NCBI GenBank assembly: GCA_017501465.1 | Contig: JAFVWY010000018.1 | Coordinates: forward strand, 146,748-210,747 | Direction: 5' to 3' | Source of the DNA: Bacilli bacterium | GTDB lineage: Bacteria > Bacillota_I > Bacilli_A > ML615J-28 > CAG-313 | DNA: 64,000 nucleotides | In this document: piece by piece, positions 11,721-42,206 of the stretch | Layout of the letters: the number at the start of each line of letters is the position of its first letter | How positions within the stretch are numbered: the first letter of the stretch is position 1 | Notes under the pieces: generated by a model | What the model was told of the DNA's origin: nothing | Database searches by the model: none | Seen by the model: only the letters and a program-made list of their open reading frames with translations | Made by a program: the position numbers and the translations under genes

Positions 11721-11723
11721 AAT

Positions 11724-17326: not shown

Positions 17327-17349
17327 TAATCAAACAATTAAAAATCATT

Positions 17350-25849: not shown

Positions 25850-25865
25850 TATAAAAATTACTATT

Positions 25866-25892
25866 AGGGTAGTCTACATGACTACCTTTTTA
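25866..25892 (+). terminator. Intrinsic terminator
   Basis: ggtagtc-tacat-gactacc followed by a T tract. Confidence 0.7.
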
Positions 25893-25916
25893 TAATTCAA
25901 AGAAAGAAATATAAAT

Positions 25917-26495
25917 ATGCTAACACATAAAGACATAGAAAAGATAAGAAAAATGTATTATGAACAACATTATACTGTAACTGAAATAACTAGAATATTG
26001 AAGGTATCTAGAAATGTTTGTTACAAGTATTTAAGGTTTGTTAACTTTAATGCTTATATTAAAGAGAATAAAAGAGCATATTACTTAGATCAATATAAAG
26101 AAGTATTGTTATCATTAATAAAAAAAAGATAGTTTACAACATCATAAACAAAGATATACTGGTATATGTGCATATGAATATTTAGTAGATAACTATCCCG
26201 ATTTTAAATATGCTAAAATTTCAACAATTAAATACTTTACAAAACTTAAAAAAAGAATTCTATTATGAACATAATGTATTTTACCATTAGATCATAAAGT
26301 AGGAGAAGCACAAGTAGATTTAGGAGAATGTTCTTTCATAGAAAAAGGTGAAAAAGTATATGGTAAATATTTAGTTATGACATTCACTCATTCTATTGTT
26401 TCTTATATATAGTTATTAAAGAATAAAAATGCTGAAAGTATTGTGTTAGCTATAAGACGTATTTTTGAATATTTAAATGGTATTCCACAAGAACT
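25917..26495 (+). mobile_element. istA: IS21-family transposase pseudogene (IstA relic)
   Basis: N-terminal HTH IRKMYYEQ..ITRILKVSRNVCYKYL; frameshifted LPLDHKVGEAQVDFG..YLVMTFTHS and IFEYLNGIPQE. Confidence 0.8.
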
Positions 26496-26770
26496 AATGG
26501 ATTGTTTTTCTATTGTTGCGTCTATGAAACGATATTCTCAACTCGAATTATTCAATTTAGTTATGAAGTTTGCTGACGCTATAAATGTTGAAATAACAAA
26601 GGATGCCACTTTGTGTTTGGTGAAATATGCTGATGGTTCATATCGTAATATGGAAAATATTATCAAAAGGGCAACAGACTTTGCATTAATAAGATATAAT
26701 AGTATCATAGATTCTAATATTGCTAATACTGTTATTAAAACACTTGATTTGTTTAGAATAGCAAGCATAA
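26490..26770 (+). pseudogene. RuvB-like AAA+ lid fragment
   Basis: LMDCFSIVASMKRYSQLEL..VEITKDA..ADGSYRNMENIIKRATDFA resembles RuvB LRDRFGI..LEFY..EL..I...A..RGTPR.A..LL.RVRDFA. Confidence 0.55.
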
Positions 26771-26802
26771 AAGATAATTTATACGATAGAAAGGATAATT
26801 TT

Positions 26803-27375
26803 ATGAAACAAAGAATTTTATTTTGTAATATTGCATATATGAGACATTATGATACAAATTACCCTGAGATACCAGAGAATGGTGGAAAATATGTACAGGA
26901 TGAAAAGGATGCTTTAGAAAAACATAATTTTGAAAAATGTTCTGATGGATATTATAGAGGTTTTGTCGAAACTAAACATTCTAAAGGATATAAATTAGGC
27001 ATTAAATTAAATGAGTATAAATCTCTAAGAATTGAAAATATTGATAATTCTTATGTTAAACAAATGTCCATTCCCAATGTATTGGTTGTATTTTGTGCAA
27101 AAAAGAAAGATGTGGGCACAGTGATAGTGGGTTGGTATAAAGGTGCTACTGTTTATAGAAGACGACCTGAGTATAATGGTAGAGCTTTTAATATAATGAC
27201 CAGAATAGAAGATGGTGTTTTATTAGAAGAAGAAGAGAGAACATTTCTCGTACCAAGAGTTACAAAAGAGGTTAAAATTGGATTTGGTCAATCTAATGTA
27301 TGGTATGCAAAAAAGCCAGAACATCAATTTTTAATTACTAAGGTAGTTGAATACGTTAATAATTATAAAAAATAA
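26803..27375 (+). CDS. Stand-alone domain usually found N-terminal to HNH nucleases
   Basis: AGAAAGGA RBS before MKQRILFCNIAYM; GGKYV, EKHNF, VIVGWYKGATVYR, GFGQSNVWY; no nuclease domain follows. Confidence 0.65.
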   Translation: MKQRILFCNIAYMRHYDTNYPEIPENGGKYVQDEKDALEKHNFEKCSDGYYRGFVETKHSKGYKLGIKLNEYKSLRIENIDNSYVKQMSIPNVLVVFCAKKKDVGTVIVGWYKGATVYRRRPEYNGRAFNIMTRIEDGVLLEEEERTFLVPRVTKEVKIGFGQSNVWYAKKPEHQFLITKVVEYVNNYKK

Positions 27376-27483
27376 AAAATGCTGATTTCCAGCATTTTTT
27401 ATTTTAAAATTTTATAATTGTAATGATACTTTAAGTGATAAGTATGATATAATACAATAAATAATGCTTTTATAGGAGAAAAA

Positions 27484-28512
27484 TTGAATATGAATACAGC
27501 ATACAATAATAAAATATTAAACATAATGATAAATCAAGCTAAAACTATAAAACATAAAAATATTTTAATGAACTGCAACTTAGAAATTAAATGGTATAGA
27601 ATGAATGGTAATTTTAATGAATGTATTGCGGTTTTATCTTGCATTGAAGATGATTATTATAAAGTAATTAATAATGATGAAAAAAAGAAATTAGAAGATT
27701 TACTTTGTAAGTCTATTCCAGAATCTGATTCAATTTGTATTATTGAATTTCTACTTAATATTATTGACGATAGTGTTGCCTTTGAAGTAAACCTAGATAC
27801 TGTGGAATTTGATATCTATAAAATAGAGAGATATATTAAATTTAAAAAGTTTCTAGAACTTGTAGAGTTATTCCCTTTATTAACATTGCGTTATAATGGT
27901 ATTATAAAGAAATGGAAAAATATTTTACCAGATTTTTTAAAGAATGTTAAAGGGGAATGGGATTACGAAAAAATACAACACCATTCATTAGAATTAATCA
28001 AAATATTAAAGGAGCATTGTTTATCATTTCAAACTCGTGAGCAAAATTTTACAGAAAGTAAACAGAAGAATAAACAAAATGATAAAGAAAAAGAGTATGA
28101 TGTTTTTATTTCTCATGCAAATCTAGATAAAGTTGATTATGTTAGCGATTTGAAAAAAAGCATCAGTAAATTAAATGTTAATGTTTTTTATGATGCAGAT
28201 GAAATTGAATGGGGAGATGAATGGGAAAAAAGAATATTAGACGGAATAGAAAAATCAAGATTTGCAATTTTAGTCTTATCAAAAAACTTTTTTGGCAGAA
28301 CTTGGACAGAAATAGAACTTTCTTCATTTTTAAGTAAACAAAACTCAAACAAACAAAAAATTATTCTACCACTTTTATATGGTGTAACACTAGATGAAGT
28401 ATTAATGAAATACCCATTTTTATCAAAAATTCACTTCATCGACAGCGAAAAGTACTCAATAGATGAAGTGACAATTCTATTTGCTCGCCAACTAATTAAA
28501 GATTTAAAATAG
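27484..28512 (+). CDS. TIR domain protein (TIR_2, TirS/TcpC-like C-terminal TIR)
   Basis: YDVFISHA, VFYD..EIEWGD, SRFAILVLSKNFF, WTEIEL with the catalytic Glu. Confidence 0.9.
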   Translation: MNMNTAYNNKILNIMINQAKTIKHKNILMNCNLEIKWYRMNGNFNECIAVLSCIEDDYYKVINNDEKKKLEDLLCKSIPESDSICIIEFLLNIIDDSVAFEVNLDTVEFDIYKIERYIKFKKFLELVELFPLLTLRYNGIIKKWKNILPDFLKNVKGEWDYEKIQHHSLELIKILKEHCLSFQTREQNFTESKQKNKQNDKEKEYDVFISHANLDKVDYVSDLKKSISKLNVNVFYDADEIEWGDEWEKRILDGIEKSRFAILVLSKNFFGRTWTEIELSSFLSKQNSNKQKIILPLLYGVTLDEVLMKYPFLSKIHFIDSEKYSIDEVTILFARQLIKDLK

Positions 28513-28610
28513 ATTCAACATTCCATTTCAATCTCCTTTATTTTTATTCCATATTATGTTATACTTATTATATCAAAGAAGTAAATAAAAGTTAACAAAC
28601 ATACAAACCA

Positions 28611-28740
28611 AGTGTCCAATTATCAAGGGGTAATTTGACACTTTTTTAATTTGAAGTTGACACTTGCGCAGGTGGAATTAGACAAATTTCAACTCTAGAA
28701 TTGGACACTTTTGCTACTTTTATAAAAATAGTGTCAAAAA
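28611..28740. repeat. Iteron-like TT(G/A)GACACT motif array with ~22 bp period
   Basis: GACA cores at 28637, 28659, 28681 and 28704; inverted copies at 28611 and 28730; further copies at 28889, 28970, 29034 (inverted) and 29060. Confidence 0.75.
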
Positions 28741-28982
28741 AACATTTAGAGACCATAGATGTAAAATAGCTTATAAGTAACCTATTTCTGGTTGCCTATA
28801 AGCTGTTTTTGTACAATAATTGCATAAAAGCTGCTATAAAAACACATTGAGATAATTGTTCGTTAGCATAGGGAGGTACTTAAAATTGGACAAATAACTA
28901 CGTAGCAGCGGGACGTCAGTGCTATTATAGTTTTGGGATATTAAAAGGGTAGATGAGGTCATAAATTTGGACACTATACCTA

Positions 28983-29058
28983 AAGAGCGGGGCGCCAGTC
29001 TCGTTTCCATGATAATCAAAACAATCAAAAATCAGTGTCCAAAAATTCAAGGTGAATT
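28983..29058 (+). repeat. ~75 bp imperfect direct repeat, copy 1
   Basis: aagagcggggc...aatcaaaacaatcaaaaatcagtgtccaaaaattcaaggtgaatt matches 44603..44677. Confidence 0.85.
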
Positions 29059-29174
29059 AGACACTTTTCCTTATAATAAATTGTAAAAAACAATAAGATA
29101 TGTTATAATTGCTGTATCTAATATTAAGAAAGGATAATTAGTTCTATAACATATAGTACTAATATTTTATTATT

Positions 29175-32036
29175 ATGAAAGAAGTTATTAAAAATTATCA
29201 ATTAAATAATTTATGTGATGAATTAATTAATATTATTAAAAATAGAAATGATATTTTTAAACCATTAAATATCATTGTTCCAAATATTAAAACTGAAAAA
29301 TGGATTAAATCATATTGGTTAAAACATCAAAATGATGTTTTAATGAATGTTAAATTTACATTAATTGATAATGCATTATTAAGTTTTATAGATTCTAAAA
29401 AAACATATAAACTTCTAAACAAAGAAGAGTTAAAATCATTAATTATAAAATTTTTAGTAAATGACAATAATATCAATTTTCCTAAAGAAATAACTGAATA
29501 TTTATATAATGATAATAAAATAAACCAAATAAAAATATATGATCTAGCAAATCAACTTGCAAATTTATACACTGAATATGATAACGATCAAATTGATATT
29601 ACTGGTTGGCAAAAGGAATTATATGATGTTATATTGAATGATGCTACAAATTATAATTTAACAACTTTAAGTTATTTATTTAATAATGAAAAGTATGTAA
29701 AAAAATCAAATGACATTACATATTTCTTTGGATTTATAGAATTTACTTCTTTACAAGAAAAAATCATCGATAAATATTCAAAATATTCAGATATCAAATT
29801 ATTCTTACTCGAAGAAGATATTAATTATAATAAAATATTTAAACTAACATCTGCACCTTCAAAACTTAGAGAAGTAGAATCAGTTCATACAAAAATATGT
29901 GAATTACTTAAAGATCCTTCTAATAAATATGATGATTTCTTAGTTCTTGCGACAAATATTAGTGAATATGAAAATGTAATACCTAGAGTATTTAACCAAG
30001 ATAATGTTAATTTCCCAAACATTCCTTATAAAATAAATAATAAAAAAAGAATAGAAACAAATCTATCCCTTGGTTTAAAGAAACTATTTGAAATATTAAA
30101 TAAAAAATTTTATACAAGAGCAGATTTTATATCTATTATAAATAATAAAGATGTTCAAAAATGTAAAGGAATATCAGAAGATGATGTAATTAATTTTGCA
30201 AATTCAATAGTGAAAATGAATGCATATAGAAATGGCACTAATAGAGATGACTGGGAATACGCTAAAAAAAGAGTACTACTTTCAAAATTATCAAGTATAA
30301 ATGATATTAATAATAATATAATAGAACTTTCAAATAAAAGTTATCTCCCATATACAAGTATAGAATTTACTGATGAATCAATTGTTAAATTTATCAATAT
30401 CATTGATGATTTAGACAGTTGGTTGAAAATTTCTAATAATATTCAATTTCTAAACAATGAAAACTTACTATTAATAAAAAACGAACTAATAAAATGGTTT
30501 TCAATTAAAGATGATAATGATTTTGAGACAAATAGTTATTTTAAAAACATCCTAAGTGATATTGATTTTTGGATACGTATTAATATATCAAATAATGATA
30601 TTCCATTAAATACATTATTTTATATGTTAATCGATTCAAGTACAGAAACAAAATTAAAAGGAACAGATTATTTTACAAAAGGAATAACATTTACGGATTT
30701 TGATGAAAATACAATACTTTCAACAAAACATATATTTTTCTTAAATGCAAGTTCAACAGAACTTCCTAAACAAAAAATTAAAAGTGAACTTGATTTAAGA
30801 AAAGAACCATTTGATGATAAAAAAACAAAAAGAGCATTCTCAATTCAATATCAAAATGCAGTATCATGTTTTAATATAAGCTATATTGATAAAGATTTAA
30901 AAACTGATGAAGATTTCTATCCGTCAACTTATATATTAAATTTAAAAAATAAATCAAAATTTGAAGAGGAAAAAATTACTCTAGATGAAATAAGAACGTG
31001 GTCAAAACTTTATACAAAAAAAGAATACAAAGATAAAAACTATTATACTAGTTTATTAGATATTGATGATGAAACATCTACTATAAGTGAAATATTTAAT
31101 TTATCAGAAAAAACAAAAAAAATAAAAATAAAAGAAATGGCTGAATACTTAGAAGAACCACTTATGAGTAAATCAAAACGTTTATTTGGAAAAGACTTTT
31201 CACTAGAAGAAGACTTTAAAGAAGAATTTGAACCTTTTACAATTGACAACATTTCAAAAAGTGTTTTAGTTAAAAAAATATGTATTGATATACTTTCAAA
31301 CAAAAAAGAGATAACTAGTATCGAAGAATACGATGAATTAAGAGAAAGATTCAATTTAGAACACAAACTACCTAATATAAATGAGACATTCAATGAAGAA
31401 TCTTTCAAAAAAGTTTTCTTAGAAAGTATAGAAATAATAAATTATATTAAAGAAAAAACAAATGAAAACTACGATGTAGTAAAACTACCTGATATATCAT
31501 TATATAATAATGAAACAGAATGGACATTAACATGTGATCAAGAATTATGTATATCTATAAATGAAAGAACAAGAAGATATTTCCAATTTAAGAAAAATTT
31601 AATAAAAGCAAATGAAATTGATTTTTTATATTTATATGTTTTCTCATTAATGGATGTATCAAACTTAAGTGATAATACATATGAAATTATATTAGATAGA
31701 GGTGTAGAAACAAGTTTTAATATAACCCCTTATAAAGCAAAAGAATTGTTAAATAATATTTATGATAAAATGAATGATTACAGTGATAATGTATATTTAC
31801 CTTTAAGAATTTTTGACAATGAAAAAATCACAAGTTTACAAGGTTTAATAGAAAACTTAAAAAAACTTCAAGGAAGCCCTTGGACATATTTTGATGATAA
31901 AAATCTATTTGACTATGAAACACAACTGGGTTATACTAATGAAAACTTCAACGAAAAATACAAACAAAAAAGAAAAGAACATATTGATCTAATAGAATAT
32001 ATGGAACAAATAGAAGAAAGTGAGGATGAAAAATAA
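29175..32036 (+). CDS. recC: Exodeoxyribonuclease V gamma subunit-like
   Basis: PLNIIVPN, LANQLANLYTEYD, WQKELY, SKLREVESVH, DDFLVLA, IPY; first gene of a recC-recB-recD run. Confidence 0.8.
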   Translation: MKEVIKNYQLNNLCDELINIIKNRNDIFKPLNIIVPNIKTEKWIKSYWLKHQNDVLMNVKFTLIDNALLSFIDSKKTYKLLNKEELKSLIIKFLVNDNNINFPKEITEYLYNDNKINQIKIYDLANQLANLYTEYDNDQIDITGWQKELYDVILNDATNYNLTTLSYLFNNEKYVKKSNDITYFFGFIEFTSLQEKIIDKYSKYSDIKLFLLEEDINYNKIFKLTSAPSKLREVESVHTKICELLKDPSNKYDDFLVLATNISEYENVIPRVFNQDNVNFPNIPYKINNKKRIETNLSLGLKKLFEILNKKFYTRADFISIINNKDVQKCKGISEDDVINFANSIVKMNAYRNGTNRDDWEYAKKRVLLSKLSSINDINNNIIELSNKSYLPYTSIEFTDESIVKFINIIDDLDSWLKISNNIQFLNNENLLLIKNELIKWFSIKDDNDFETNSYFKNILSDIDFWIRINISNNDIPLNTLFYMLIDSSTETKLKGTDYFTKGITFTDFDENTILSTKHIFFLNASSTELPKQKIKSELDLRKEPFDDKKTKRAFSIQYQNAVSCFNISYIDKDLKTDEDFYPSTYILNLKNKSKFEEEKITLDEIRTWSKLYTKKEYKDKNYYTSLLDIDDETSTISEIFNLSEKTKKIKIKEMAEYLEEPLMSKSKRLFGKDFSLEEDFKEEFEPFTIDNISKSVLVKKICIDILSNKKEITSIEEYDELRERFNLEHKLPNINETFNEESFKKVFLESIEIINYIKEKTNENYDVVKLPDISLYNNETEWTLTCDQELCISINERTRRYFQFKKNLIKANEIDFLYLYVFSLMDVSNLSDNTYEIILDRGVETSFNITPYKAKELLNNIYDKMNDYSDNVYLPLRIFDNEKITSLQGLIENLKKLQGSPWTYFDDKNLFDYETQLGYTNENFNEKYKQKRKEHIDLIEYMEQIEESEDEK

Positions 32037-35000
32037 TGAATAAATTTGATTTAAATAATTTTAATCCAAACTTAAACTATGTAATTGAAGCATCAGCAGG
32101 AACTGGAAAAACATACAATATCGTTGAAATAGTAGATAAATATGTAAATGTATATAACTTCGAATTAAATGAAATATTAATTGTAACATATACAGAAAAA
32201 GCAGCTGGTGAATTAAAAGATAGAATTAGAGATAAACTAAAAAATAAAAACGTTGATAATGCGTCAATATATACAATTCACTCATTTTGTCAAAATGCAA
32301 TTAAAGAATTTGGCCTTTCAGCAAACCTACCTTTCAACTTAAATGTTGTTGATGAAAGCGAAATGTATAAATTTGTAGAAAGATACGTAAGAGATAGTGA
32401 TATTATAAAAGATATCACCATGTTTGTAGAAACCCAAGAAAGTTTTGATATTGATAGTCTTAAAGAAATTCTTGTTAAAGGATGTCAAATGTATTATTTA
32501 GATATTAACAATAATGAAGATAAATCAATTATTACTTTAAACGAAAGTACAACTTATGAAGATATTTATAATTATAAAAAATCACTAGCAACATCAAAAA
32601 CATTTGAAGATATTTTATCAAAAAATGATAGAATTGCATATAACTATAATATATTAAAAAATGGAATTTTCGATAAATCAAAAGATTTAGCAAGTATTTT
32701 AAGTACGGTAGAGCATTTTAATTTTAATGGCAATAGTTTTAGAAAGAAAAAATTTGAAGAAGCTTCTATTGATGAATATAATGCGTATCTTTATTTTTAT
32801 AATTTAAAAGACAATATCAAAAAAATAAAAAATGAAAAACTAATTGCATCAATCTACTTAAAAGATTTTTATATCAAATGGCAATATGAAAAAGAACTTA
32901 ACAAAAACCAAACATTTGATGACATGATTAGATATGTAAGAGAATCTATCATTCATGATGATAAATTAAAAAACAAACTGAAAAATAAATATAAAAGAGC
33001 TATAATTGATGAATTTCAAGATACCAATCAAAGACAATTCGATATTTTTAAAAACATCTTCATGGAAGATGATGAACATAAAATAATTGTTGTTGGAGAT
33101 CCTAAACAATCAATTTATTCTTTCCAAGGTGCAGACATTAACGTTTATTATAATGCAAAAGAAGCAATTAAAAATAATAATGGTGAAATTTGCATGTTAA
33201 ATAAGAATTATAGATCAACTGAAGATATGGTTGATTCTTGTAATAAATTATTTAATTACTATGATTTTAGTGGTACAACATTTGAAGATTGTGGTTCATT
33301 AAGTAAAAATAATGATAATGAATATCATGAAGTAAAATATTGTGGGAAAGATACAAATGCATTTTGGATTGCAACAGATGAATTTGATAATTCGATAGAT
33401 GAAAATGATTTTTCGAAGATTGCAGTCGAACAAATAATAGATTGTTGTACATTTGATAGTGATGGTAAAACAAAACTTCAAGTTAAAGATAAGAGTGGAG
33501 AATTTAGAAACGTATCATTCAAAGACTTTGCGGTACTTGCAAGAACAAAAAGTGAAATGTTCGCGATTGAAAAAGCCTTAAAAAATGCGGGAGTACCATA
33601 TTTAAGATATAAAGATAAACAACTTTTTTTAGGTAAAGAATGCGCTCATTGGATATGCTTATTAAAGGCAATTAACGTAGAAGATTTTACTGGAAGAAAT
33701 AGAAAACTATTAAAGAAAGCATTATTTACAAATTTTTTCTCGCTTTCTTTAGAACAAATAAATAGTGATTATGTAAATAAAGATGATATAAAAGAAATTG
33801 AAATAATCAATAACTGGAAATATCTTGCATATACAAATAAATGGGAAGATTTATTTGATGATATAATAATCAGTTCAAAAATATCAGATAAATTAAAATC
33901 TTTAAAGGATATTCAATCACTTTCGATTTATAAACAAATAGCAAATTATTGTATTGACTATTTATCAAAAGCAAAAACACTTAAAGAATTAATTAATAAC
34001 CTAACAAACCTATCAAAAAATGGTGATTTTGAAGGTGATGACCAAAATGGAAATATAATCGAAAAAAGTACAAATTTTGATTGTGTACAAATAATGACAA
34101 TACATGCATCAAAAGGATTACAATTCCCAGTTGTAATTGCTGTAGGTGGGTTTAAAGAATCATTTAAAAACGCAAAAGCATATAAGTGTCATAAAAAAGA
34201 CGAAAATAATAATGATCAACAAATACTTGTATTTGATAGATCAAATGATGTTGCAGAGGAAGAAACAGCAGAATGGAAAAGATTGTTCTATGTAGCTTAT
34301 ACTAGACCTCAGTTTTTATTAATATTACCACTATATAAAATTTATGGTGATAGATTTTTGGAAACATCAATTAAAGATTATATGAATAACCATAAAGACT
34401 CATATAAAATTGTTCATTCTAATAAAGAAAGTTATACAAAACTAAGAAGTAAAACAAGTGAAATCCTTTCAAAATATAATAAAGTATCGAATGATCAATA
34501 TGAAAAAATAGCACAAGATCAAATATTAAAAGATCTGATAAAAGAAAACTATCATAAAAAAATACAAAAACATTCATATTCATCATTATCACATGAGAAC
34601 AAACAACAAGATGATTATGAAATAAACAAAGAGGGCTTAATTGAGGAAGGCCTATCAATGTTTGATAAGCTTGCAAAACCAGTTAATCTAAACTATGATA
34701 AAGAAAAAGAACCTATAGAACTATCTATAGATTATCCTAAAGGCGCAAAAATTGGTACAGCTCTACATGAAATATTAGCGGAAACTGATTTTGAACAATA
34801 TGATAGAAACATTGAAAATAGAATAAAAAATTGTTTTATTAAACAAGGAATAAAGACTATTGAAGAATGGATCAATGATACTAAACAAATTGTTGAAAAT
34901 GTAGTAAATGCAAATTTACCTGTGATAAATGGATCACAAATTAAAAATGAAACATTAAATTTAAAATCTATAACACTAGATAGTAAATTAGATGAAGTAG

Positions 35001-35422
35001 AATTTAATTTTAATATTTTAACAGAAGATTTTAGAAATTACTGTAATGGATTTGTTGACTTAATTTTTAAAAACAATGAATACTATGCAATTGTAGACTG
35101 GAAATCAGATAGATTATATGATACATTTGATTCATATTCTTCACTAGATAGTATCAAACGCCATGTTGATGATGCTTATTCAATACAAAGAGTACTTTAT
35201 TCTTATTGTTTAATTAAATGGTTAAAACTTCATAATAAAGACTTATCAGAACAAGAAATATTTGAAAAACACTTTGGTGGAGTATATTATATTTTTATTA
35301 GAGGATGTAATTATAATACATTCAATGGTGTATATGCGCAAACATGGGAATCTTGGAATGATTTAGAACAATCATTTAAACAAATAATACAAGTTAAAAT
35401 AGGAGGAATGATTAATGAATAA
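32036..35422 (+). CDS. recB: Exodeoxyribonuclease V beta subunit (UvrD helicase plus PD-(D/E)xK nuclease)
   Basis: IEASAGTGKT, TYTEKAAGEL, IDEFQDT, VGDPKQSIYSF, NYRS, TIHASKGLQF, GFVDLIF..VDWKS. Confidence 0.9.
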   Translation: MNKFDLNNFNPNLNYVIEASAGTGKTYNIVEIVDKYVNVYNFELNEILIVTYTEKAAGELKDRIRDKLKNKNVDNASIYTIHSFCQNAIKEFGLSANLPFNLNVVDESEMYKFVERYVRDSDIIKDITMFVETQESFDIDSLKEILVKGCQMYYLDINNNEDKSIITLNESTTYEDIYNYKKSLATSKTFEDILSKNDRIAYNYNILKNGIFDKSKDLASILSTVEHFNFNGNSFRKKKFEEASIDEYNAYLYFYNLKDNIKKIKNEKLIASIYLKDFYIKWQYEKELNKNQTFDDMIRYVRESIIHDDKLKNKLKNKYKRAIIDEFQDTNQRQFDIFKNIFMEDDEHKIIVVGDPKQSIYSFQGADINVYYNAKEAIKNNNGEICMLNKNYRSTEDMVDSCNKLFNYYDFSGTTFEDCGSLSKNNDNEYHEVKYCGKDTNAFWIATDEFDNSIDENDFSKIAVEQIIDCCTFDSDGKTKLQVKDKSGEFRNVSFKDFAVLARTKSEMFAIEKALKNAGVPYLRYKDKQLFLGKECAHWICLLKAINVEDFTGRNRKLLKKALFTNFFSLSLEQINSDYVNKDDIKEIEIINNWKYLAYTNKWEDLFDDIIISSKISDKLKSLKDIQSLSIYKQIANYCIDYLSKAKTLKELINNLTNLSKNGDFEGDDQNGNIIEKSTNFDCVQIMTIHASKGLQFPVVIAVGGFKESFKNAKAYKCHKKDENNNDQQILVFDRSNDVAEEETAEWKRLFYVAYTRPQFLLILPLYKIYGDRFLETSIKDYMNNHKDSYKIVHSNKESYTKLRSKTSEILSKYNKVSNDQYEKIAQDQILKDLIKENYHKKIQKHSYSSLSHENKQQDDYEINKEGLIEEGLSMFDKLAKPVNLNYDKEKEPIELSIDYPKGAKIGTALHEILAETDFEQYDRNIENRIKNCFIKQGIKTIEEWINDTKQIVENVVNANLPVINGSQIKNETLNLKSITLDSKLDEVEFNFNILTEDFRNYCNGFVDLIFKNNEYYAIVDWKSDRLYDTFDSYSSLDSIKRHVDDAYSIQRVLYSYCLIKWLKLHNKDLSEQEIFEKHFGGVYYIFIRGCNYNTFNGVYAQTWESWNDLEQSFKQIIQVKIGGMINE

Positions 35423-37343
35423 TTATAAAGCATTTTACAACTTTTTATTAAATAGTAAAATGATAACTCCTATTTGGGAATACATCTTAGAATTAATCGA
35501 AATAGAAATTAAAGATAATAAAAACAAAAATTATTATTTAATAATTTTTTCAGTATATTTTAGTTTAATTGGAGATGGTAACATTTGTATATCATTAAAT
35601 AAAGAAATCTTAAAGAACAAATGGAATGTAAAAGTAAACGCTACAAAAATTCTTCTTAGCGAAAACGAAGACTATAACGAAGAAGAATTTAATGATTATT
35701 ATAATTTCTCTATAAATGTAATTGATAATTATTTAGAACAAATTAACAATGTGGAATTGCCACAAATTATTGGTGACAATAAAGTATTTCAAATAGATAA
35801 CAACTATTTATATGTGAAGAAATATGACGTCGCAAGAAAAGGAATCATATCATCAATAGACAGAATATTCTCTAAAAAAAGAAATATACAAAATTCAACA
35901 TCTTATAAAGAATTTGTAAATGATGGATTTAATCTTTCTGAAGGCCAAGAAAAATCTGTAATTGAAGGCTTAAATAAAAACCTAATAATTACAGGGGGAC
36001 CTGGAACTGGTAAAACAACATCAATTTTATTTTTATTAATAAACTTACTTAAAAATTATAATAATGAAATAACAGTATACTTGGTTGCACCAAGTGGCAA
36101 AGCCTCAAGCAGAATGAAAGAAAGTATTATAAATGGTTTAGTAAATATTAAAGAAGAATATAAAAAACAAAACCAAGATATTATTGATAAAATTAATAAT
36201 CTAGAAGAATCAACAATACATAGATTACTAAGTGTTGATATGGAAACTTGTGGATTTGCATACAATAAAAATCATCAATTCAATAGTGATTCGCTATTTG
36301 TTATTGATGAATCAAGTATGATAGATGTTTGCTTATTTAATTCTTTATTGGAATCTATTCCAGACGATTCATTAGTTTATATAATGGGAGATAAAAACCA
36401 ATTACCATCAGTTGAATGTGGAGCAGTATTCGGAGATTTACTAAAGAAACAATCCTTAAAAGAAAATATTATCGAACTAGATGAATCAATTAGATTTAGA
36501 AAAGGAACGAAAATATATGAACTAGCTTATTGTATAAACAATGGATTAGATATACCAGTAAATGAAAATGACTGGAAAGATTTTGATACATTTGAAATAA
36601 AAAAAGAAGATCCAACAAAACCAATATTCTATTATAATATCAATAAAGAAGGATATTCGATTAAAGATATAATTGATTTTGTTTCAAATAAATGGGCTAA
36701 TGAATACTTTAAATCTTTACAAAAGATGGCAACCAATCTTGATCATAACGATATACAATATTTAAAAGAGTTATTTAAATATACTGAAAGTAGTAAAATA
36801 CTATGTGCAGAAAATAAAGGGCCAAGAGGAATACAAGAAATAAATAAATTCATAAAGAAAACAGTTATTGATTATTCAATGCCAACAACAATCAATGGAT
36901 ACTATCCAGGAATGTTGATGATGATTAACAAAAATAACAAAATGTTAGATTTGTACAATGGGGACTCAGGTATACTTGTAACATTTGAAAAAGATCCAAC
37001 ATTATATTTTATGGTTAAAAAAGCAACCAATCTTGTTAAAGAAGAAGGAAAATTTGAAGACAAAATTTTCAAAATTGATGACTTCACATTTTATCCTTTA
37101 CGACTTATTACAAGAAGTGAAATTGACTTATCATATGCAATAACTATTCATAAGTCACAAGGATCAGATTATAAAAATATTCTAGTAATCCTTCCAACTG
37201 CAAAAGGGCACCCTTTATTAAATAGACAAATAATTTATACTGCAATAACAAGAACAAAAGGAAATACTTATATACTTTCTAATCAAGAACGTTTAATAGA
37301 ATCAAAAGATTGTGTAATAGTTAGAGATACAAATATAGAATAA
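35415..37343 (+). CDS. recD: Exodeoxyribonuclease V alpha subunit
   Basis: ITGGPGTGKTT, APSGKA, TIHRLL, IDESSMID, GDKNQLPSV, NGDSG, TIHKSQGS, YTAITR. Confidence 0.92.
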   Translation: MNNYKAFYNFLLNSKMITPIWEYILELIEIEIKDNKNKNYYLIIFSVYFSLIGDGNICISLNKEILKNKWNVKVNATKILLSENEDYNEEEFNDYYNFSINVIDNYLEQINNVELPQIIGDNKVFQIDNNYLYVKKYDVARKGIISSIDRIFSKKRNIQNSTSYKEFVNDGFNLSEGQEKSVIEGLNKNLIITGGPGTGKTTSILFLLINLLKNYNNEITVYLVAPSGKASSRMKESIINGLVNIKEEYKKQNQDIIDKINNLEESTIHRLLSVDMETCGFAYNKNHQFNSDSLFVIDESSMIDVCLFNSLLESIPDDSLVYIMGDKNQLPSVECGAVFGDLLKKQSLKENIIELDESIRFRKGTKIYELAYCINNGLDIPVNENDWKDFDTFEIKKEDPTKPIFYYNINKEGYSIKDIIDFVSNKWANEYFKSLQKMATNLDHNDIQYLKELFKYTESSKILCAENKGPRGIQEINKFIKKTVIDYSMPTTINGYYPGMLMMINKNNKMLDLYNGDSGILVTFEKDPTLYFMVKKATNLVKEEGKFEDKIFKIDDFTFYPLRLITRSEIDLSYAITIHKSQGSDYKNILVILPTAKGHPLLNRQIIYTAITRTKGNTYILSNQERLIESKDCVIVRDTNIE

Positions 37344-37369: not shown

Positions 37370-37510
37370 AAAATGTCAGTAAAAACTACTGACATTTTTA
37401 TATTTTTTATATGATATAATGCTAGTGTAAGCTTAAGTGTACCTCTTATTTACAATCCCTTTAATTAATTTGTTGTTTTATTCTTTCATTTTTTTATTAC
37501 TTAAGCTTAC
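37370..37510 (+). promoter_or_regulatory. Palindrome, extended -10 promoter and long-stem leader
   Basis: aaaatgtcagta-aaaac-tactgacatttt; TGATATAAT at ~37412; gtaagcttaagt...acttaagcttac stem. Confidence 0.5.
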
Positions 37511-37569: not shown

Positions 37570-38292
37570 ATGTCAAGATGTGGAACTAAAAAAAGTATAA
37601 GTTTTTTTGATCAAAAAGAATGGTATTATCATGAAAAGGATTATGGAAAATTAATCATTAAACCTGGAGCACCAAGAAGTGTTAATGAAGGTTTTAAAGA
37701 CTTCTTATTTGATTTTAACTTAGATGAAGAATTTGATTTTGAGCTATATCATACATTATTATATGAAATAAGTGAACAAAACATTGATTTTGTAAAGATA
37801 ATGATTTACAAAATATTTAATGGAAATGATAATTATGATACTAAAATTAATGATGATACAAAAATGATATGGTATGAATGTGGTGATAGAGTTGATGAGC
37901 ATTGTAATGAATATTCAAAATGGATTTGGTTTAATGATATTGATAGTTTTAAAAAAATAAGTGAAGTTATTATAAAAGATGTATTTGATAATTATGAAGA
38001 ATATAACAGAGAAATATTAACAAAATTTAATGATATTAATAAAGAAGAAGACTTTAAAAAATACAAAATTAAATTACTACAATTAATTGATGAATTAAAT
38101 TCAACAACACCTTATGCATATCTTAAGTTTTATATATTTGATGATCCATATCAAGCTAAATACTTACTGGATAAGCGATTATGTTATATTGGAATACCAT
38201 TTGATTTCTTTAAAGAATATAAAAGAGAATTATTTATATTAGATAATGAATTAAAAAAATATTTAAAAGATAAAAAAAGTTTTATTGGTTAA
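37570..38292 (+). CDS. Hypothetical protein
   Basis: 240 aa ORF with AAGGAG RBS. Confidence 0.7.
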   Translation: MSRCGTKKSISFFDQKEWYYHEKDYGKLIIKPGAPRSVNEGFKDFLFDFNLDEEFDFELYHTLLYEISEQNIDFVKIMIYKIFNGNDNYDTKINDDTKMIWYECGDRVDEHCNEYSKWIWFNDIDSFKKISEVIIKDVFDNYEEYNREILTKFNDINKEEDFKKYKIKLLQLIDELNSTTPYAYLKFYIFDDPYQAKYLLDKRLCYIGIPFDFFKEYKRELFILDNELKKYLKDKKSFIG

Positions 38293-38307
38293 TAATGAGG
38301 AATAGTT

Positions 38308-39333
38308 ATGTTAGAAATGTTAATTTATAGTAAAGAAAACAATAAAGATTTAGAAAGAAATATATTTGCAGGAATGGAAATAATCGGCCATAATCTTTTA
38401 TATAAAAATGAAGAACTAAAACAAACACTAGAAAAATGGAATGTTGCAAATGAAAATTATAAAAACGGAATTGTGTTTTTATTACTATGTCCATGGTATG
38501 CAAGAAATATCAAAGAAGTTGAAAGTGAAATAGATAAATTTTCAAAATTATTTAATTATAAATATAATGAAGATTATATTATATATGCAAAAAAAATATA
38601 TCACTTACTTCATAATGATGAAGCAGTTGAAATGGATATTCATATGAATAAAAATAAAGAATTATCTTTTGAAGAAGAATTAATAAATATTAATATATAT
38701 GATGCAATCAAAAAAAATATAGATATGAATAAATTGAAGAAAACATTAAGCCAAATAAATAAAAAACATAATGAATATGAATTAACAATTAGAGCTATAG
38801 AACACAGATTATATTTATTTAACCAATCAACAAAAATAAATGATATGACAAAATTTATTGCAAATGAATTTATTTGCCAAAGACAATGTCCGTCAACTAA
38901 AAAATATTATGATACTAAATTTATTGATTGGTATTTTAATGATAACATTGAAATACTTAAAAAAAACCTAATATATAACTTATTAGGCGATCTAATTGAT
39001 AATTTTGATTTTTATGAAATGAAAGATAATTTATTTTTAGAAGACTATGATGAATTTATAAAAGATGTAGGATTTTTCTGTATGGTAGATAGTGATTATC
39101 ATAAAGTTATTGTAGAAATAAAAAATGATTTACCATTAATTTTTAGTAAAAATGAAAATGACTTTATTAAAGGTTTAGACTCAATCAATGAAAAATTAAA
39201 AAAATATAATTTCAAAGAAAAATTCATATTTTTTAATTCTGTAGATGATGCTCTAAAATATTTAAATAAAGAATATCAAGATGATTCAATCAACTATAAT
39301 GAAATATTTGAAAGAAGATATTTTATTAATTAA
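38308..39333 (+). CDS. Hypothetical protein
   Basis: 341 aa ORF with GAGG RBS. Confidence 0.7.
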   Translation: MLEMLIYSKENNKDLERNIFAGMEIIGHNLLYKNEELKQTLEKWNVANENYKNGIVFLLLCPWYARNIKEVESEIDKFSKLFNYKYNEDYIIYAKKIYHLLHNDEAVEMDIHMNKNKELSFEEELININIYDAIKKNIDMNKLKKTLSQINKKHNEYELTIRAIEHRLYLFNQSTKINDMTKFIANEFICQRQCPSTKKYYDTKFIDWYFNDNIEILKKNLIYNLLGDLIDNFDFYEMKDNLFLEDYDEFIKDVGFFCMVDSDYHKVIVEIKNDLPLIFSKNENDFIKGLDSINEKLKKYNFKEKFIFFNSVDDALKYLNKEYQDDSINYNEIFERRYFIN

Positions 39334-39399
39334 ACTTAATAATAAAATATGATATAAATTATAGTTATGGTATAATTAATATGAAAGCAAGGTGTTATT

Positions 39400-40326
39400 A
39401 TGAATAAAAACGAAATACTAATTCAATATCGTATGGAACAAAAATTTGGTAAAATTTTTGAAACAACTATGAAAGATTTATATAATTTCATCGAAGATGA
39501 AATAGATAATGGGGCAACCGAAATAGAAATAATAAATTTAATGTATAAACTATATCGAGATGATGTTATAGATATAAAAAGTTTAAAAAATATCGTTGAA
39601 TACCTTGGAAAAGAATTACCACTTCAAATGGAATATTATGGAGAAAAAGCAAAAACAATCATTAGAGATTTCGCACAATACTGTCCAAATGAATCAGAAC
39701 TTTTAAAACGTATTTTTCATGAATATCAAATAGGTAGTATGAATATTAATATTTGTAGAATTTGTATAACACTAATGGGATATAGATTTAGTAGCGAATT
39801 TGAAAAAATGTCTGCTCAAGAAAGAAGAAATTCAACATGGATATATGATTTAAATGGAGATATGGTTAAAATAGATTCAAATTATAAAAAATTTGTAGAT
39901 GTTTATACTGGTATATTAAACTTAGAGAATACAGGACTATTAGCCCCCTCATATCCTTATATTAATAATTATGATTTTATTGATGATTATATGTTGCAAA
40001 AAGGTATAAAAAACCAAGACTTAAAAAAAGCAGGACTTTTTAGAAAATATAAAGCAGAATTAAAACAAAAAGGTTTCAAAAGAAAAATAGATGTATTTAG
40101 AATGATAATAACGCTTAATTTACCATCATCTATTGCAAAACAATTTCTAAATATATGCGGATTTAATTTTGATCCATTTGATGAAAAAGATATGTTTATA
40201 CTAGATTATTTAAATGGAAAATATGAAAAGAAAAAAACATTCCAAGAATTTGCGGATATGTTTAATGAAAAATTTGAATTATCAGAAAAAAAACCTATCT
40301 ATTTTGAATGGCCAAACTGGGAATAA
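39400..40326 (+). CDS. Hypothetical protein with two copies of a ~50 aa helical module
   Basis: GATEIEII..YKLYRDDVI..LGKEL and NESELL..FHEYQIGSM..MGYRFSSEF; TGGTATAAT promoter upstream. Confidence 0.65.
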   Translation: MNKNEILIQYRMEQKFGKIFETTMKDLYNFIEDEIDNGATEIEIINLMYKLYRDDVIDIKSLKNIVEYLGKELPLQMEYYGEKAKTIIRDFAQYCPNESELLKRIFHEYQIGSMNINICRICITLMGYRFSSEFEKMSAQERRNSTWIYDLNGDMVKIDSNYKKFVDVYTGILNLENTGLLAPSYPYINNYDFIDDYMLQKGIKNQDLKKAGLFRKYKAELKQKGFKRKIDVFRMIITLNLPSSIAKQFLNICGFNFDPFDEKDMFILDYLNGKYEKKKTFQEFADMFNEKFELSEKKPIYFEWPNWE

Positions 40327-40350
40327 AAGATAAATAAAGTATGTAGTATA

Positions 40351-40566
40351 ATGACTTTAGAAGAAGTAAAAAAAGCAATAGAATACTTTAAATCAGAAGG
40401 AAGAACAGATGATGCAATTGTTGTAACATTTTATTTGATGTTTCAAGACAATAAAATTAGTGCAAATGAATTATCTGATTTACTTGGCTTAATTGGATAT
40501 GAGTTAAAAGATGAGTTTTTAAATTTATAACCTGAATAACAAAAACACATTTTTGATGAGAATTAG
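40351..40566 (+). pseudogene. Stand-alone copy of the same helical module, with in-frame stops
   Basis: MTLEEVKKAIEYFKSEGRTDDAIVVTFYLMFQDNKIS..LIGYELKDEFLNL*PE*QK. Confidence 0.55.
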
Positions 40567-40738
40567 GATCCATTAGATAATTTAATTGAAGAACTATATC
40601 ATTTGTGTTCATACAATATAATTGAAAAAAAATAATTAGAGAAAATTTTTAGAAATTTTAAATAAAAAATTTAATGAAAATTATTTAGAAAGATTTAAGA
40701 TAAAAAAAGAAAGAAAAAAATAAAGTGAGAAAATAGTT

Positions 40739-41880: not shown

Positions 41881-42120
41881 TGGTTTAGGCAGTCTGTATG
41901 ATTGCCTTTTTTTATATAAATTTTAAGAAATTATAGAAAAAATAACAAAACTTAATTCAGTTATGTTAAGAGAGTTTTTATTGAAGTTTGCGGATATGAT
42001 TGATAAAGAAGGTTTGAAGAAGGCAATACATAAAATTATTGAGTTGTTATAAATGTGACTTTAATGTCGTATAACTATTGAAAATAAACACATACTATTA
42101 TATGAATAAAACGAATAACA

Positions 42121-42189: not shown

Positions 42190-42206
42190 AGGAGTGTATA
42201 ATTTAT

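What the first reader, a model, noticed from the sequence alone, without database searches (positions are those of the whole stretch)
29175..37343. Intact RecC-RecB-RecD operon inside a defence island of a low-GC Gram-positive-type genome
Seen: three coupled ORFs with complete RecB helicase and nuclease motifs and RecD motifs, their own promoter (~29100), and visibly more A-rich codon usage than the core genes at 49-62 kb. They lie inside the block bracketed by the 75 bp repeats. Known: Firmicutes and relatives normally use AddAB, whereas RecBCD is typical of Proteobacteria and some other phyla and destroys linear phage DNA lacking Chi. Inference: a horizontally acquired RecBCD kept as mobile anti-phage or anti-plasmid cargo rather than as the housekeeping repair enzyme.
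Basis: partly seen in the sequence, partly recalled or inferred. Interest (0 to 1): 0.72.

Follow-up and report, generated by a model that had tools for sequence, protein, structure and literature searches.

The report
Horizontally exchanged RecBCD operon in gut Bacilli
An intact but very divergent RecBCD DNA-end-processing enzyme sits among phage-defence genes in an uncultured gut bacterium whose relatives mostly use AddAB or nothing, and it behaves like a traded accessory module, not an inherited core gene.

Summary
recC (29175-32036), recB (32036-35422) and recD (35415-37343) are intact, overlapping genes with complete helicase and nuclease motifs, a promoter-like site and a terminator hairpin. 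The modelled RecC matches E. coli RecC over its whole length.

- **Only end-processing enzyme found.** The 1.56-Mb genome has no AddAB and no RecJ.
- **Patchy.** In its order, RecC occurs in 12 of 106 species genomes, AddA in about 50, and neither in about 47. In a phylum-wide sample of 399 genomes, RecC turns up in only 3 outside the order.
- **Not inherited vertically.** The RecBCD tree contradicts the genus labels. Two congeners share 89% of PcrA but only 44% of RecC.
- **Likely donor.** The clade nests inside Fibrobacterota RecB.
- **Compositionally foreign.** In this genome the three genes lie at the 97th-99.7th percentile for A content.
- **Defence context is local.** At least seven defence or candidate systems flank the operon here, but only 3 of 12 related loci have clear defence neighbours, and no mobility genes were found.

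"Defence cargo rather than repair enzyme" is not shown. A dual-use accessory module fits best. This is a new member of a known kind, of moderate interest.

The parts
29175..32036 (+). recC: 953-aa RecC-type subunit, very divergent. It is shorter than the 1122-aa E. coli RecC chain.
   Evidence: Pfam PF04257 covers residues 5-212 at 2.1e-11. TIGR01450 scores 46.9 bits against a cut-off of 582.9. A profile of 8 homologues hits only E. coli RecC in the PDB (3.7e-15). The AlphaFold2 model has mean pLDDT 85.5. Foldseek's top hits are E. coli RecC chains (E 5e-31, TM by query 0.68-0.70), ahead of AddB (0.52-0.55).
32036..35422 (+). recB: 1128-aa SF1A helicase with a C-terminal RecB-family nuclease. 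It overlaps recC by 1 nt.
   Evidence: TIGR00609 recB scores 418 bits (8.4e-125), covering residues 71-1103. The PDB best hit is E. coli RecB at 7e-50. Helicase motifs I-VI and the nuclease motifs are invariant in alignment A2.
35415..37343 (+). recD: 642-aa SF1B helicase of the RecD1 type. It overlaps recB by 8 nt.
   Evidence: TIGR01447 recD scores 298.4 bits; the RecD2 model scores 250.3. The PDB best hit is E. coli RecD at 1.1e-36; RecD2 gives 1.9e-18. The motifs are invariant in A4.
29081..29109 (+). Promoter-like site, TTGTAA-17-TATAAT with an upstream TG, 66 nt before the recC start.
   Evidence: It matches 10 of 12 consensus positions. Promoter-like sites are not enriched over shuffles in this AT-rich DNA, so this is weak evidence.
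37370..37398 (+). Terminator-like hairpin (12 pairs) followed by a T-run, 27 nt after the recD stop.
   Evidence: 7 terminator-like sites were found in the region against 1.0 expected.
28540..29174 (.). 635-bp non-coding leader with a cluster of TTGGACAC-like motifs in both orientations. Function unknown.
   Evidence: It holds 4 exact sites, against 0.67 expected in the whole window. These are 4 of the 26 sites in the whole genome. There is no Rfam match.
28983..29058 (+). 76-nt direct repeat, copy B, just upstream of the recC promoter-like site.
   Evidence: It is 84% identical to 44603-44677. The 40-nt core is 95% identical. Alignment.
44603..44677 (+). 76-nt direct repeat, copy C, just upstream of the TetR gene.
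2698..2746 (+). Partial third copy of the repeat (about 50 nt, 80% identical), just upstream of the first defence gene.
2771..28512 (+). Upstream defence island.
- PDC-M22A/B (Lamassu LmuB-like)
- PDC-M50A plus a ThsB-type TIR protein
- Dcm methylase plus PDC-M33A/C plus HNH
- fused C5/N6 methylase plus a type II restriction enzyme
- PLD-SNF2 helicase (PbeA/ZorD-like) plus Dam methylase plus a DUF7226 protein
- TIR protein PDC-S66
   Evidence: Pfam and PADLOC. Examples: PDC-M22B 2.8e-193, ThsB 5.3e-82, MTase_II 5.7e-275, REase_II 1.1e-121, PDC-S66 4.5e-41.
37570..44302 (+). Downstream variable block, absent between recD and TetR in G001. It holds four ORFs with no significant family match (240, 341, 308 and 188 aa), a DUF5655 protein, and an AbiLi-like ATPase with a 242-aa partner.
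   Evidence: In G001, recD is followed directly by TetR. ORFs 38308-39333 and 39400-40326 share the extreme A content of recCBD.
44784..45461 (+). TetR-family regulator. It is the syntenic anchor shared with G001 and marks where the ordinary genes (transporters, peptidase, NAD synthase) resume.
   Evidence: Pfam TetR_N. It is 83% identical to the gene directly after recD in G001.

Best explanation
This is a genuine, intact RecBCD-type helicase-nuclease (RecC, RecB, RecD1) of a very divergent clade. Its host is an uncultured, reduced-genome animal-gut bacterium of a Bacilli-type lineage.

**Origin (inferred from trees and distributions).** The clade entered this lineage from a Fibrobacterota-like donor. 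It now circulates as an accessory module. It is present in about a tenth of species. It is exchanged between genera and replaced between close species. It was imported into this genome recently enough to keep a foreign base composition.

**Mechanism (inferred from conserved motifs and fold, not assayed).**
1. The complex loads on blunt double-strand DNA ends.
2. RecB (3'-5') and RecD (5'-3') motors unwind the duplex.
3. The RecB nuclease degrades it.
4. RecC scans the 3' strand, possibly for a Chi-like signal, after which RecA (present in the genome) would be loaded.

**Role.** The genome has no AddAB and no RecJ, so the same enzyme would serve two purposes. It would be the cell's only end-processing route for break repair. 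It would also destroy linear phage or plasmid DNA, including fragments made by the adjacent restriction systems. It is best read as a dual-use accessory module that sits at a variable, defence-rich locus. It is not a dedicated defence system carried on a mobile element.
For: **Identity.**

**Sole end-processing enzyme.**
- The AddA and AddB models hit only PcrA and the RecB/RecC genes themselves in the 96.6%-complete genome.
- RecJ was not found. RecA (559 bits) and RecR are present.

**Accessory status in the order.**
- RecC: 12 of 106 genomes, 10 of 67 high-quality ones, 8 of 31 genera.
- AddA at E<=1e-30: 51 of 106. One of these, in G066, is the RecB next to its RecC.
- Three genomes have both (G032, G037, G054).
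- By my arithmetic about 47 of 106 have neither.
- RecJ: 4 of 106.

**Rarity outside the order.** The same 3 genomes (G267, G331, G441) in a 399-genome class sample and in a 399-genome phylum sample.

**Horizontal exchange.**
- The PcrA tree follows taxonomy: genus g1 100, G001+G002 100, g14 99.
- The concatenated RecCBD tree pairs G000 with G049 (genus g8; 100/99), G001 with G020 (g5; 99/99), and G037 (g19) with G032 (g14; 100/100).
- AU tests reject g1 monophyly: p 0.009 on RecB, and a log-likelihood difference of 154 on the concatenate. They also reject g14 monophyly (p 0.0004).
- G001 against G002: PcrA 89%, RecC 44%, RecB 55%, RecD 58%. G020 against G054: PcrA 56%, RecB 75%.

**Donor.**
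- Fibrobacter loci carry recC-recB-recD in the same order, with RecB 34-36% identical. The next phyla are at 21-24%.
- With 10 Fibrobacterota rows, the Bacilli-type clade (support 100) is nested inside Fibrobacterota and is sister to a Fibrobacterales group.
- RecC was found in 56 of 81 Fibrobacterota genomes.

**Recent import.** A and third-position A are at the 97th-99.7th percentile in G000. In 8 relatives, third-position A of recCBD is like that of the neighbouring genes.

**Stable locus, variable surroundings.** G001 has recD followed directly by TetR (83% identical). The defence genes flanking the operon in G000 have no counterparts in the relatives' loci.
Against: - No activity, Chi site or phage phenotype was tested, so the split between repair and defence is inference.
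Closer relatives in other phyla could have been missed. Three Fibrobacterota rows have long branches.
- The AU tests were run after the trees had been seen, although the groups are the tool's own genus labels.
- Very fast or uneven evolution of a vertically inherited operon could mimic part of the identity discordance. It would not explain RecB at 75% between two genera whose PcrA is 56% identical.
- Genus-level conservation (3 of 3 genomes at least 81% complete) and shared downstream synteny look core-like.
- The direct repeats bracketing 29.06-44.6 kb, and the shared odd composition of recCBD with ORFs at 38.3-40.3 kb, could mean that the block came in as one cassette. That would fit the cargo idea better than mine.
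Confidence: 0.65

Rival explanations
1. recCBD is dedicated anti-phage or anti-plasmid cargo of a mobile defence island, kept for immunity and not for chromosome repair.
For: - It is embedded among at least 7 defence or candidate systems.
- It is bracketed by 76-nt direct repeats.
- It has extreme A and third-position A content, shared with ORFs at 38.3-40.3 kb.
- It is patchy and horizontally exchanged.
- About 47 of 106 genomes of the order have no AddA and no RecC, and only 4 of the 106 have RecJ. End-processing enzymes are therefore dispensable here, and their presence needs another selective reason.
- Clear defence neighbours occur in 3 of 12 related loci: RM in G037, AbiE in G029, PDC-S34 in G093.
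Against: - No integrase, transposase or conjugation gene lies in the window or in the 19 kb upstream.
- 8 of 12 related loci have only metabolic or transport neighbours.
- In G001 the operon abuts the same TetR gene without the downstream cassette.
- The genome lacks any other end-processing enzyme.
- RecC has no PADLOC match, and RecB and RecD match only generic helicase models.
- No contig in 4 laid runs joins across the block with a reliable flank.
Confidence: 0.22
2. An ancestral, vertically inherited housekeeping RecBCD of this order. It was lost many times and evolves unusually fast, and the defence island merely grew next to it.
For: - Family f1 sequences form one clade (support 99-100).
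- The operon is conserved in the genus with partial synteny.
- It is the sole end-processing enzyme.
- Neighbours in most relatives are housekeeping genes.
Against: - Genus monophyly is rejected.
- G001 and G002 have PcrA 89% identical but RecC 44%. G020 and G054 have RecB 75% but PcrA 56%.
- Presence is 1 of 11 species in two genera.
- Chromosomal positions differ between genera.
- Third-position composition in G000 is foreign.
- The clade nests inside Fibrobacterota.
Confidence: 0.08
3. A decaying or inactive relic with no current function.
For: All three proteins score below the NCBIfam equivalog cut-offs. Many relatives do without any such enzyme.
Against: - All three frames are open and translationally coupled.
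- All catalytic motifs are invariant across 8-12 homologues that are 40-70% identical.
- The RecC model is confident and RecC-like over its whole length.
- Near-identical copies occur in contigs of several gut metagenome runs.
Confidence: 0.02

Closest known systems
E. coli RecBCD (exodeoxyribonuclease V; structures 1W36, 5LD2, 8B1T)
   Same: - Three subunits.
- RecB is an SF1A helicase plus a C-terminal nuclease.
- RecD is a RecD1-type SF1B helicase.
- The RecC fold matches over its whole length (TM by query 0.68-0.70).
- These are the best PDB sequence hits for all three subunits.
   Different: - RecC is only 12-13% identical in the structural alignment, and at 953 aa is shorter than the 1122-aa RecC chain.
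- All three proteins score below the NCBIfam equivalog cut-offs.
- Gene order is recC-recB-recD with overlapping stop and start codons.
- The host lineage otherwise uses AddAB or nothing.
- Chi specificity is unknown.
Fibrobacterota RecBCD (loci L032 and L033, and genomes G460-G525)
   Same: - Same recC-recB-recD order.
- It is the closest outside relative found: RecB 34-36%, RecD 31-38%, RecC 25-27% identical.
- It forms one clade with the Bacilli-type sequences (support 100).
   Different: - The Fibrobacterota proteins are longer: RecC 1133-1251 aa, RecB 1129-1271 aa.
- There the enzyme is widespread, in 56 of 81 genomes. In the Bacilli-type order it is sporadic.
AddAB (B. subtilis; structures 3U4Q, 4CEI)
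   Same: It is the functional analogue, a helicase-nuclease that processes double-strand breaks. It is the type found in about 50 of 106 genomes of this order. The RecC model also resembles AddB, but less well (TM 0.52-0.55).
   Different: - AddAB has no RecD subunit.
- The AddA and AddB models score far lower than the recB and recC models.
- No Asp, Glu, Lys or Cys is invariant in the C-terminal part of RecC (after residue 686) in 8 homologues. This fits RecC's inactive nuclease-like domain. That AddB there carries an active nuclease with an Fe-S cluster is recalled, not tested here.
RecBCD reported in a Firmicute (Bacillus halodurans) and earlier surveys of RecBCD/AddAB distribution
   Same: There is precedent for a Firmicute having RecBCD in place of AddAB (Rocha et al. 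2005, PMC1193525, passages seen). The two complexes have complementary distributions.
   Different: - Bernheim et al. 2019 (PMC6452273, passages seen) state that RecBCD is lacking in Firmicutes in their set of complete genomes.
- Here a whole uncultured order carries it sporadically, with exchange between genera.
- Of Cromie 2009 I saw only the title in a reference list. The text is not held, so I could not check what it reports about this lineage.

Membership tests
RecBCD (exodeoxyribonuclease V) | Three separate subunits of RecC, RecB and RecD1 type, encoded together | tested here: met
   For each ORF the best family and the best PDB hit are recC, recB and recD. The recD (RecD1) model scores 298 bits against 250 for RecD2.
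RecBCD (exodeoxyribonuclease V) | RecB: SF1A helicase motifs plus a C-terminal RecB-family nuclease motif | tested here: met
   ASAGTGKT, IIDEFQDTN, VVGDPKQSIY, NYRS, TIHASKGLQFP, YVAYTR, GTALHE, GFVDLIF, DWKSD and YSIQRVLYSY are invariant or nearly so in 8 sequences. Which E. coli residues these correspond to is recalled, not aligned here.
RecBCD (exodeoxyribonuclease V) | RecC: whole-length RecC fold (helicase-like domains without ATPase motifs, nuclease-like C-terminal domain) | tested here: met
   The AlphaFold2 model has pLDDT 85.5. Foldseek's top 6 hits are E. coli RecC chains (E down to 5e-31, TM 0.65-0.70), ahead of AddB.
RecBCD (exodeoxyribonuclease V) | Scores above NCBIfam's curated equivalog cut-offs | tested here: not met
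   recC 46.9/582.9, recB 418.3/696.05, recD 298.4/310.15 bits. This reflects sequence divergence and not a different architecture.
RecBCD (exodeoxyribonuclease V) | ATP-dependent double-strand exonuclease and helicase activity, Chi recognition, RecA loading | not testable with these tools
   This needs biochemistry or genetics. A search for a skewed Chi-like oligomer was not attempted.
AddAB | Two-subunit enzyme: AddA plus an AddB that carries its own active nuclease, and no RecD | tested here: not met
   - The AddA_Gpos and AddB_Gpos models give only weak partial hits to recB and recC.
- A RecD1-type subunit is present.
- No Asp, Glu, Lys or Cys is invariant in the C-terminal part of RecC, after residue 686.
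Known or candidate anti-phage defence systems (PADLOC-DB 2.0) | The proteins match models of a described defence system | tested here: not met
   RecC has no match. RecB matches only generic UvrD-like models (GajB, 7e-43 over part of the protein). RecD matches generic RecD-like helicase models (PDC-S68, typeIV_RecD).
Cargo of a mobile genetic element | Flanking integrase, transposase or conjugation genes, or a demonstrated insertion/excision polymorphism | tested here: not met
   - No such domain was found in the window ORFs of at least 100 aa or in the 19 kb upstream.
- No reliable joint across the block was seen in 4 laid runs. These were contigs only, so this is weak.
Cargo of a mobile genetic element | Direct repeats at both ends of the block | tested here: inconclusive
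   76-nt repeats, 84% identical, lie at 28983 and 44603, with a partial copy at 2698. In G001, recD abuts TetR and no copy of the repeat was found anywhere in its locus.

The most novel reading that the evidence does not exclude
In this order of reduced-genome gut bacteria, end-resection enzymes are dispensable. RecBCD there has become, in evolutionary terms, an immune module. Whole recCBD alleles are swapped between species and genera at a defence-rich chromosomal hotspot. Allele turnover, strongest in RecC, is driven by phage anti-RecBCD inhibitors and not by repair needs. The enzyme acts mainly as the executioner for the neighbouring restriction systems.
Probability: 0.3. Interest if true: 0.7.

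Novelty: new member of a known kind. Interest (0 to 1): 0.45.

Why it matters
RecBCD is the textbook case of a housekeeping repair enzyme that also acts as innate immunity. A large survey of complete genomes reported it as lacking in Firmicutes (PMC6452273).

Here an uncultured gut lineage shows the opposite evolutionary behaviour:
- AddAB, RecBCD and RecJ are all dispensable.
- RecBCD of Fibrobacterota-like origin is sporadic.
- It is exchanged between genera and replaced between sister species.

That pattern is expected of defence genes, not of repair genes.

If the defence-driven reading is confirmed, it offers a natural system for separating the immune and repair roles of RecBCD. It would also let one ask how Chi recognition copes with allele replacement. 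It is also a warning for annotation: all three proteins score below the NCBIfam cut-offs used for automatic naming.

Tried and rejected
- **RNA families.** Rfam found only two tRNAs in the window and nothing in the recC leader at E<=1.
- **PHROGs** gave nothing for the ORFs downstream of recD.
- **Genetic code 4.** The 'TGA inside' flags for the RecC matches in G331 and G267 are just the recC stop codons. ORFs are the same under codes 11 and 4.
- **Sequencing runs.** No RNA holder was listed.
- **Laid contigs.**
  - No joint across 29.0-44.6 kb has a flank of 30 nt or more. The listed joints have 20-25-nt flanks and are probably spurious.
  - Run X13 has next to no cover over about 42.0-44.6 kb, and runs X12 and X13 have low cover left of about 28.3-28.8 kb. 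This may mean the flanking cassettes vary between strains.
  - Loose ends at 29100 and 44714 could not be interpreted.
- **Cromie 2009** is not held.
- **Chi.** A search for a Chi-like skewed oligomer was considered and not run. The genome is in 22 unoriented contigs with strong gene-strand bias, and the result would have been ambiguous.
- **Order name.** I did not name the order. A source labels a 54%-identical partial RecC '[Bacilli bacterium]'. At the threshold used, the AddA model rings only in B. subtilis and L. lactis among the 14 control genomes.

Full report
**Observation**

The window is about 25% G+C, and nearly all its long ORFs are on the + strand. Three ORFs lie at the stated coordinates:

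| ORF | Coordinates | Length |
|---|---|---|
| recC | 29175-32036 | 953 aa |
| recB | 32036-35422 | 1128 aa |
| recD | 35415-37343 | 642 aa |

They overlap by 1 and 8 nt.

- Pfam and NCBIfam assign them to RecC, RecB and RecD. All three score below NCBIfam's equivalog cut-offs: 46.9/582.9, 418.3/696 and 298.4/310 bits.
- Against solved structures, each is closest by sequence to the E. coli RecBCD subunit. RecC gives 3.7e-15 and is the only hit. RecB gives 7e-50, against 6.8e-20 for AddA. RecD gives 1.1e-36, against 1.9e-18 for RecD2.
- The RecB helicase motifs and its nuclease motifs are invariant in eight homologues. The RecD motifs are invariant in twelve.
- RecC matches its family models only in part, so I modelled it from a 48-row alignment. 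The model has mean pLDDT 85.5. Its best Foldseek matches are E. coli RecC chains over the whole length (E down to 5e-31, TM by query 0.65-0.70). AddB comes next (0.52-0.55).
- A promoter-like site lies at 29081-29109. A strong terminator-like hairpin lies at 37370-37398. Only the terminator class exceeds shuffles.

**Surroundings**

- From 2.7 to 28.5 kb the window is a defence island. It holds:
  - PDC-M22A/B (LmuB-like);
  - PDC-M50A with a ThsB-type TIR protein;
  - a Dcm methylase with PDC-M33A/C and an HNH protein;
  - a fused C5/N6 methylase with a type II restriction enzyme;
  - a PLD-SNF2 helicase with a Dam methylase;
  - a TIR protein (PDC-S66).
- After recD come four ORFs with no significant family match, a DUF5655 protein and an AbiLi-like ATPase with a partner. 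A TetR gene at 44784 follows, and then ordinary transport, peptidase and NAD-synthase genes.
- The 19 kb upstream of the window runs from housekeeping genes (UvrA, Lgt, WhiA) into unknown ORFs and a large DEAD-box helicase. It has no integrase.
28983-29058 and 44603-44677 are 84% identical over 76 nt, and a partial copy lies at 2698-2746. Each copy sits just 5' of a block.
- The 635-bp recC leader holds 4 of the genome's 26 exact TTGGACAC sites. It has no Rfam match.

**The genome and its relatives**

The window lies in a 211-kb contig of a 1.56-Mb assembly with 22 contigs, 96.6% complete.

- The AddA and AddB models find only PcrA and the recB/recC genes themselves.
- RecJ was not found.
- RecA and RecR are present.

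RecBCD is therefore the only recognisable double-strand-end processing enzyme in this genome.

Counts across the order, which holds 106 species genomes in two families:

| Gene | Found in |
|---|---|
| RecC | 12 of 106 (10 of 67 high-quality; 8 of 31 genera) |
| Gram-positive-type AddA (E<=1e-30) | 51 of 106, one of which (G066) is the RecB beside its RecC |
| RecJ | 4 of 106 |

- RecC presence within genera is also sporadic: 1 of 11 species in each of two genera.
- Three genomes have both RecC and AddA (G032, G037, G054).
- By my arithmetic from these tallies, about 47 of 106 genomes have neither. Among high-quality genomes the figure is about 30 of 67.
- Outside the order, RecC of this type turned up in the same 3 genomes in a 399-genome class sample and in a 399-genome phylum sample.
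- In the large protein collection there are 57 clusters of this RecC. The nearest is 90% identical and the next 57%. One is labelled '[Bacilli bacterium]' by its source.

**Vertical or horizontal?**

PcrA, used as a housekeeping yardstick, follows the genus labels:
- genus g1 is monophyletic (support 100), with G001 and G002 as close sisters;
- g14 is monophyletic (99).

RecBCD does not.

- In the RecB tree (25 rows) and the concatenated RecC+RecB+RecD tree (14 rows, 2692 columns), family f1 is one clade.
- Inside it, G000 pairs with G049 of another genus (100/99), and G001 pairs with G020 of another genus (99/99). G002 stands apart.
- In family f2, G037 (g19) pairs with G032 (g14) (100/100), away from G035 (g14).
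- G054, G066 and G441 were left out of the concatenate because their genes are cut by contig ends.
- AU tests reject monophyly of g1 (p 0.009 on RecB; log-likelihood difference 154 on the concatenate). They also reject monophyly of g14 (p 0.0004).
- The groups are the tool's own labels, but I ran the tests after seeing the trees.

Pairwise identities make the same point:

| Pair | PcrA | RecC | RecB | RecD |
|---|---|---|---|---|
| G001 vs G002 (same genus) | 89% | 44% | 55% | 58% |
| G020 vs G054 (different genera) | 56% | n/a | 75% | n/a |

- Chromosomal positions differ between genera.
- Within the genus, G001 has recD directly followed by the TetR gene (83% identical). G002 has the M13 peptidase (77%) about 2 kb downstream.
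- The operon therefore sits at a stable locus in the genus while its alleles are as different as those of other genera.

**Composition**

- recC, recB and recD lie at the 99.7th, 98.8th and 99.0th percentile of A content among the 762 ORFs of at least 250 aa in this genome. They lie at the 99.0th, 97.1st and 98.7th for third-position A.
- The ORFs at 38308-39333 and 39400-40326 share this composition.
- In eight relatives, third-position A of recCBD is like that of its neighbours.
- The anomaly is therefore specific to this genome and suggests a recent import.

**Origin**

They are 34-36% identical in RecB, 34-36% in RecD and 25% in RecC. Other phyla were at 21-24% in RecB.
- RecC was found in 56 of 81 Fibrobacterota genomes, 31 of them strongly (E<=6e-80).
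- I added eight more Fibrobacterota RecB sequences and dropped two long-branched outgroups. The Bacilli-type clade (support 100) then nests inside Fibrobacterota and is sister to a Fibrobacterales group (98). Three deeper Fibrobacterota rows lie outside.
- This points to a Fibrobacterota-like donor. The caveat is that other phyla were only sampled.
- Near-identical copies of the operon are held in contigs of animal-gut metagenome runs. 12 runs hold at least half of the sampled words, and most of these are flagged as possible sources.

**Defence context elsewhere**

- I scanned the 61 nearest flanking ORFs of 11 related loci with PADLOC. The outermost ORFs of each locus were left out. Most of them were also scanned with Pfam, apart from the flanks of G049, G066, G093, G331 and G267.
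- The twelfth locus, G001, has only TetR on a short contig.
- Clear defence neighbours occur in 3 of the 12: a type II methylase with an R.Pab1-like nuclease in G037, AbiEi/AbiEii in G029, and PDC-S34 in G093.
- One is marginal (PDC-S07 at 9.6e-10 in G049).
- Eight have only metabolic, transport or unknown neighbours.
- G035 has a serine recombinase and a Rep protein nearby.

The dense island is thus a feature of this genome and not of the operon.

**Interpretation**

- The enzyme is a real RecBCD.
- Its evolutionary behaviour is that of an accessory, horizontally exchanged module. It is patchy, phylogenetically incongruent, subject to allele replacement, foreign in composition here, and dispensable across the order.
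- The stronger claim, that it is kept as mobile defence cargo and not as the repair enzyme, is not supported:
  - this genome has no other end-processing enzyme;
  - the genus keeps the operon at one locus;
  - no mobility genes were found;
  - most related loci are not defence islands.
- The claim is not refuted either:
  - nearly half the order lives without any such enzyme;
  - the repeat-bracketed block and the shared composition of recCBD with two downstream ORFs would fit a cassette.
- I consider a dual-use accessory module most likely (0.65). It would be the sole route for RecA-dependent break repair. It would also degrade linear foreign DNA and restriction fragments.
- The dedicated-cargo model stands at 0.22.

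**Literature**

- Passages of Bernheim et al. 2019 (PMC6452273) state that RecBCD is lacking in Firmicutes in their set. [quoted passage not shown]
- Passages of Rocha et al. 2005 (PMC1193525) note Bacillus halodurans as a Firmicute with RecBCD instead of AddAB. They also separate RecD1 from RecD2.
- Of Cromie 2009 I saw only the title in a reference list. The text is not held.
- My two other searches listed no paper describing RecBCD in this lineage or as defence-island cargo. I read only the listings.

**Verdict**

This is a new, divergent member of a known enzyme family in an unusual host lineage, with accessory-gene dynamics. It is of moderate interest.

Noticed in passing
window 28540-29174: The 635-bp non-coding leader of recC carries 4 of the genome's 26 exact TTGGACAC sites, in both orientations, plus degenerate copies. 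There is no Rfam match. It could be an operator array or a remnant of an element end.
   Followed up: partly
window 2698-2746, 28983-29058, 44603-44677: Three copies of one repeat (76 nt at 84% between B and C; about 50 nt for A). Each lies just 5' of a gene block. This is reminiscent of repeated insertions at one site, but no recombinase was found.
   Followed up: partly
window 37570-40326: Three ORFs (240, 341 and 308 aa) have no significant Pfam, PADLOC or PHROG match. The latter two share the extreme A and third-position A content of recCBD. They may have arrived with it.
   Followed up: partly
window 18333-25849: A five-gene cluster of unassigned system type:
- an 815-aa protein with a sigma-70 region-4-like HTH;
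- a 429-aa protein with a weak ParB-like match;
- an 838-aa PLD plus SNF2 helicase (PbeA/ZorD-like);
- a Dam-type methylase;
- a DUF7226 protein with a restriction-enzyme-like C-terminus.
   Followed up: no
order-wide: By my arithmetic about 47 of 106 species genomes of this order have neither AddA nor RecC (about 30 of 67 high-quality ones). Only 4 of the 106 have RecJ. RecA was checked in G000 only. How these genomes process double-strand ends is open.
   Followed up: partly
window 54010-55908 versus G049:C35:6069-7967: The M13 peptidase is 76% identical in G049 (another genus), as high as in the congeners (77%). PcrA is 56-57% identical. This is possibly another horizontally exchanged gene.
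   Followed up: no
G000:C15:131046-131507 (L140:3046-3507): A SpoIIR-like gene (Pfam 5.7e-17) lies upstream of the window. A SpoIIE-domain protein sits beside recC in G029. Both are unexpected in 1-2-Mb reduced genomes.
   Followed up: no
L025:3333-5898 (G035): A serine recombinase and a Rep-like protein lie about 1 kb downstream of recD in G035. This is the only mobility genes seen beside any copy of the operon.
   Followed up: no
L024:9066-12200 (G037) and L026:8966-12055 (G032): RecB of G037 and G032 lacks about 70-100 residues of the variable region between helicase motifs I and II (alignment columns about 210-310). Both frames are otherwise intact. These two genomes also carry AddA.
   Followed up: no
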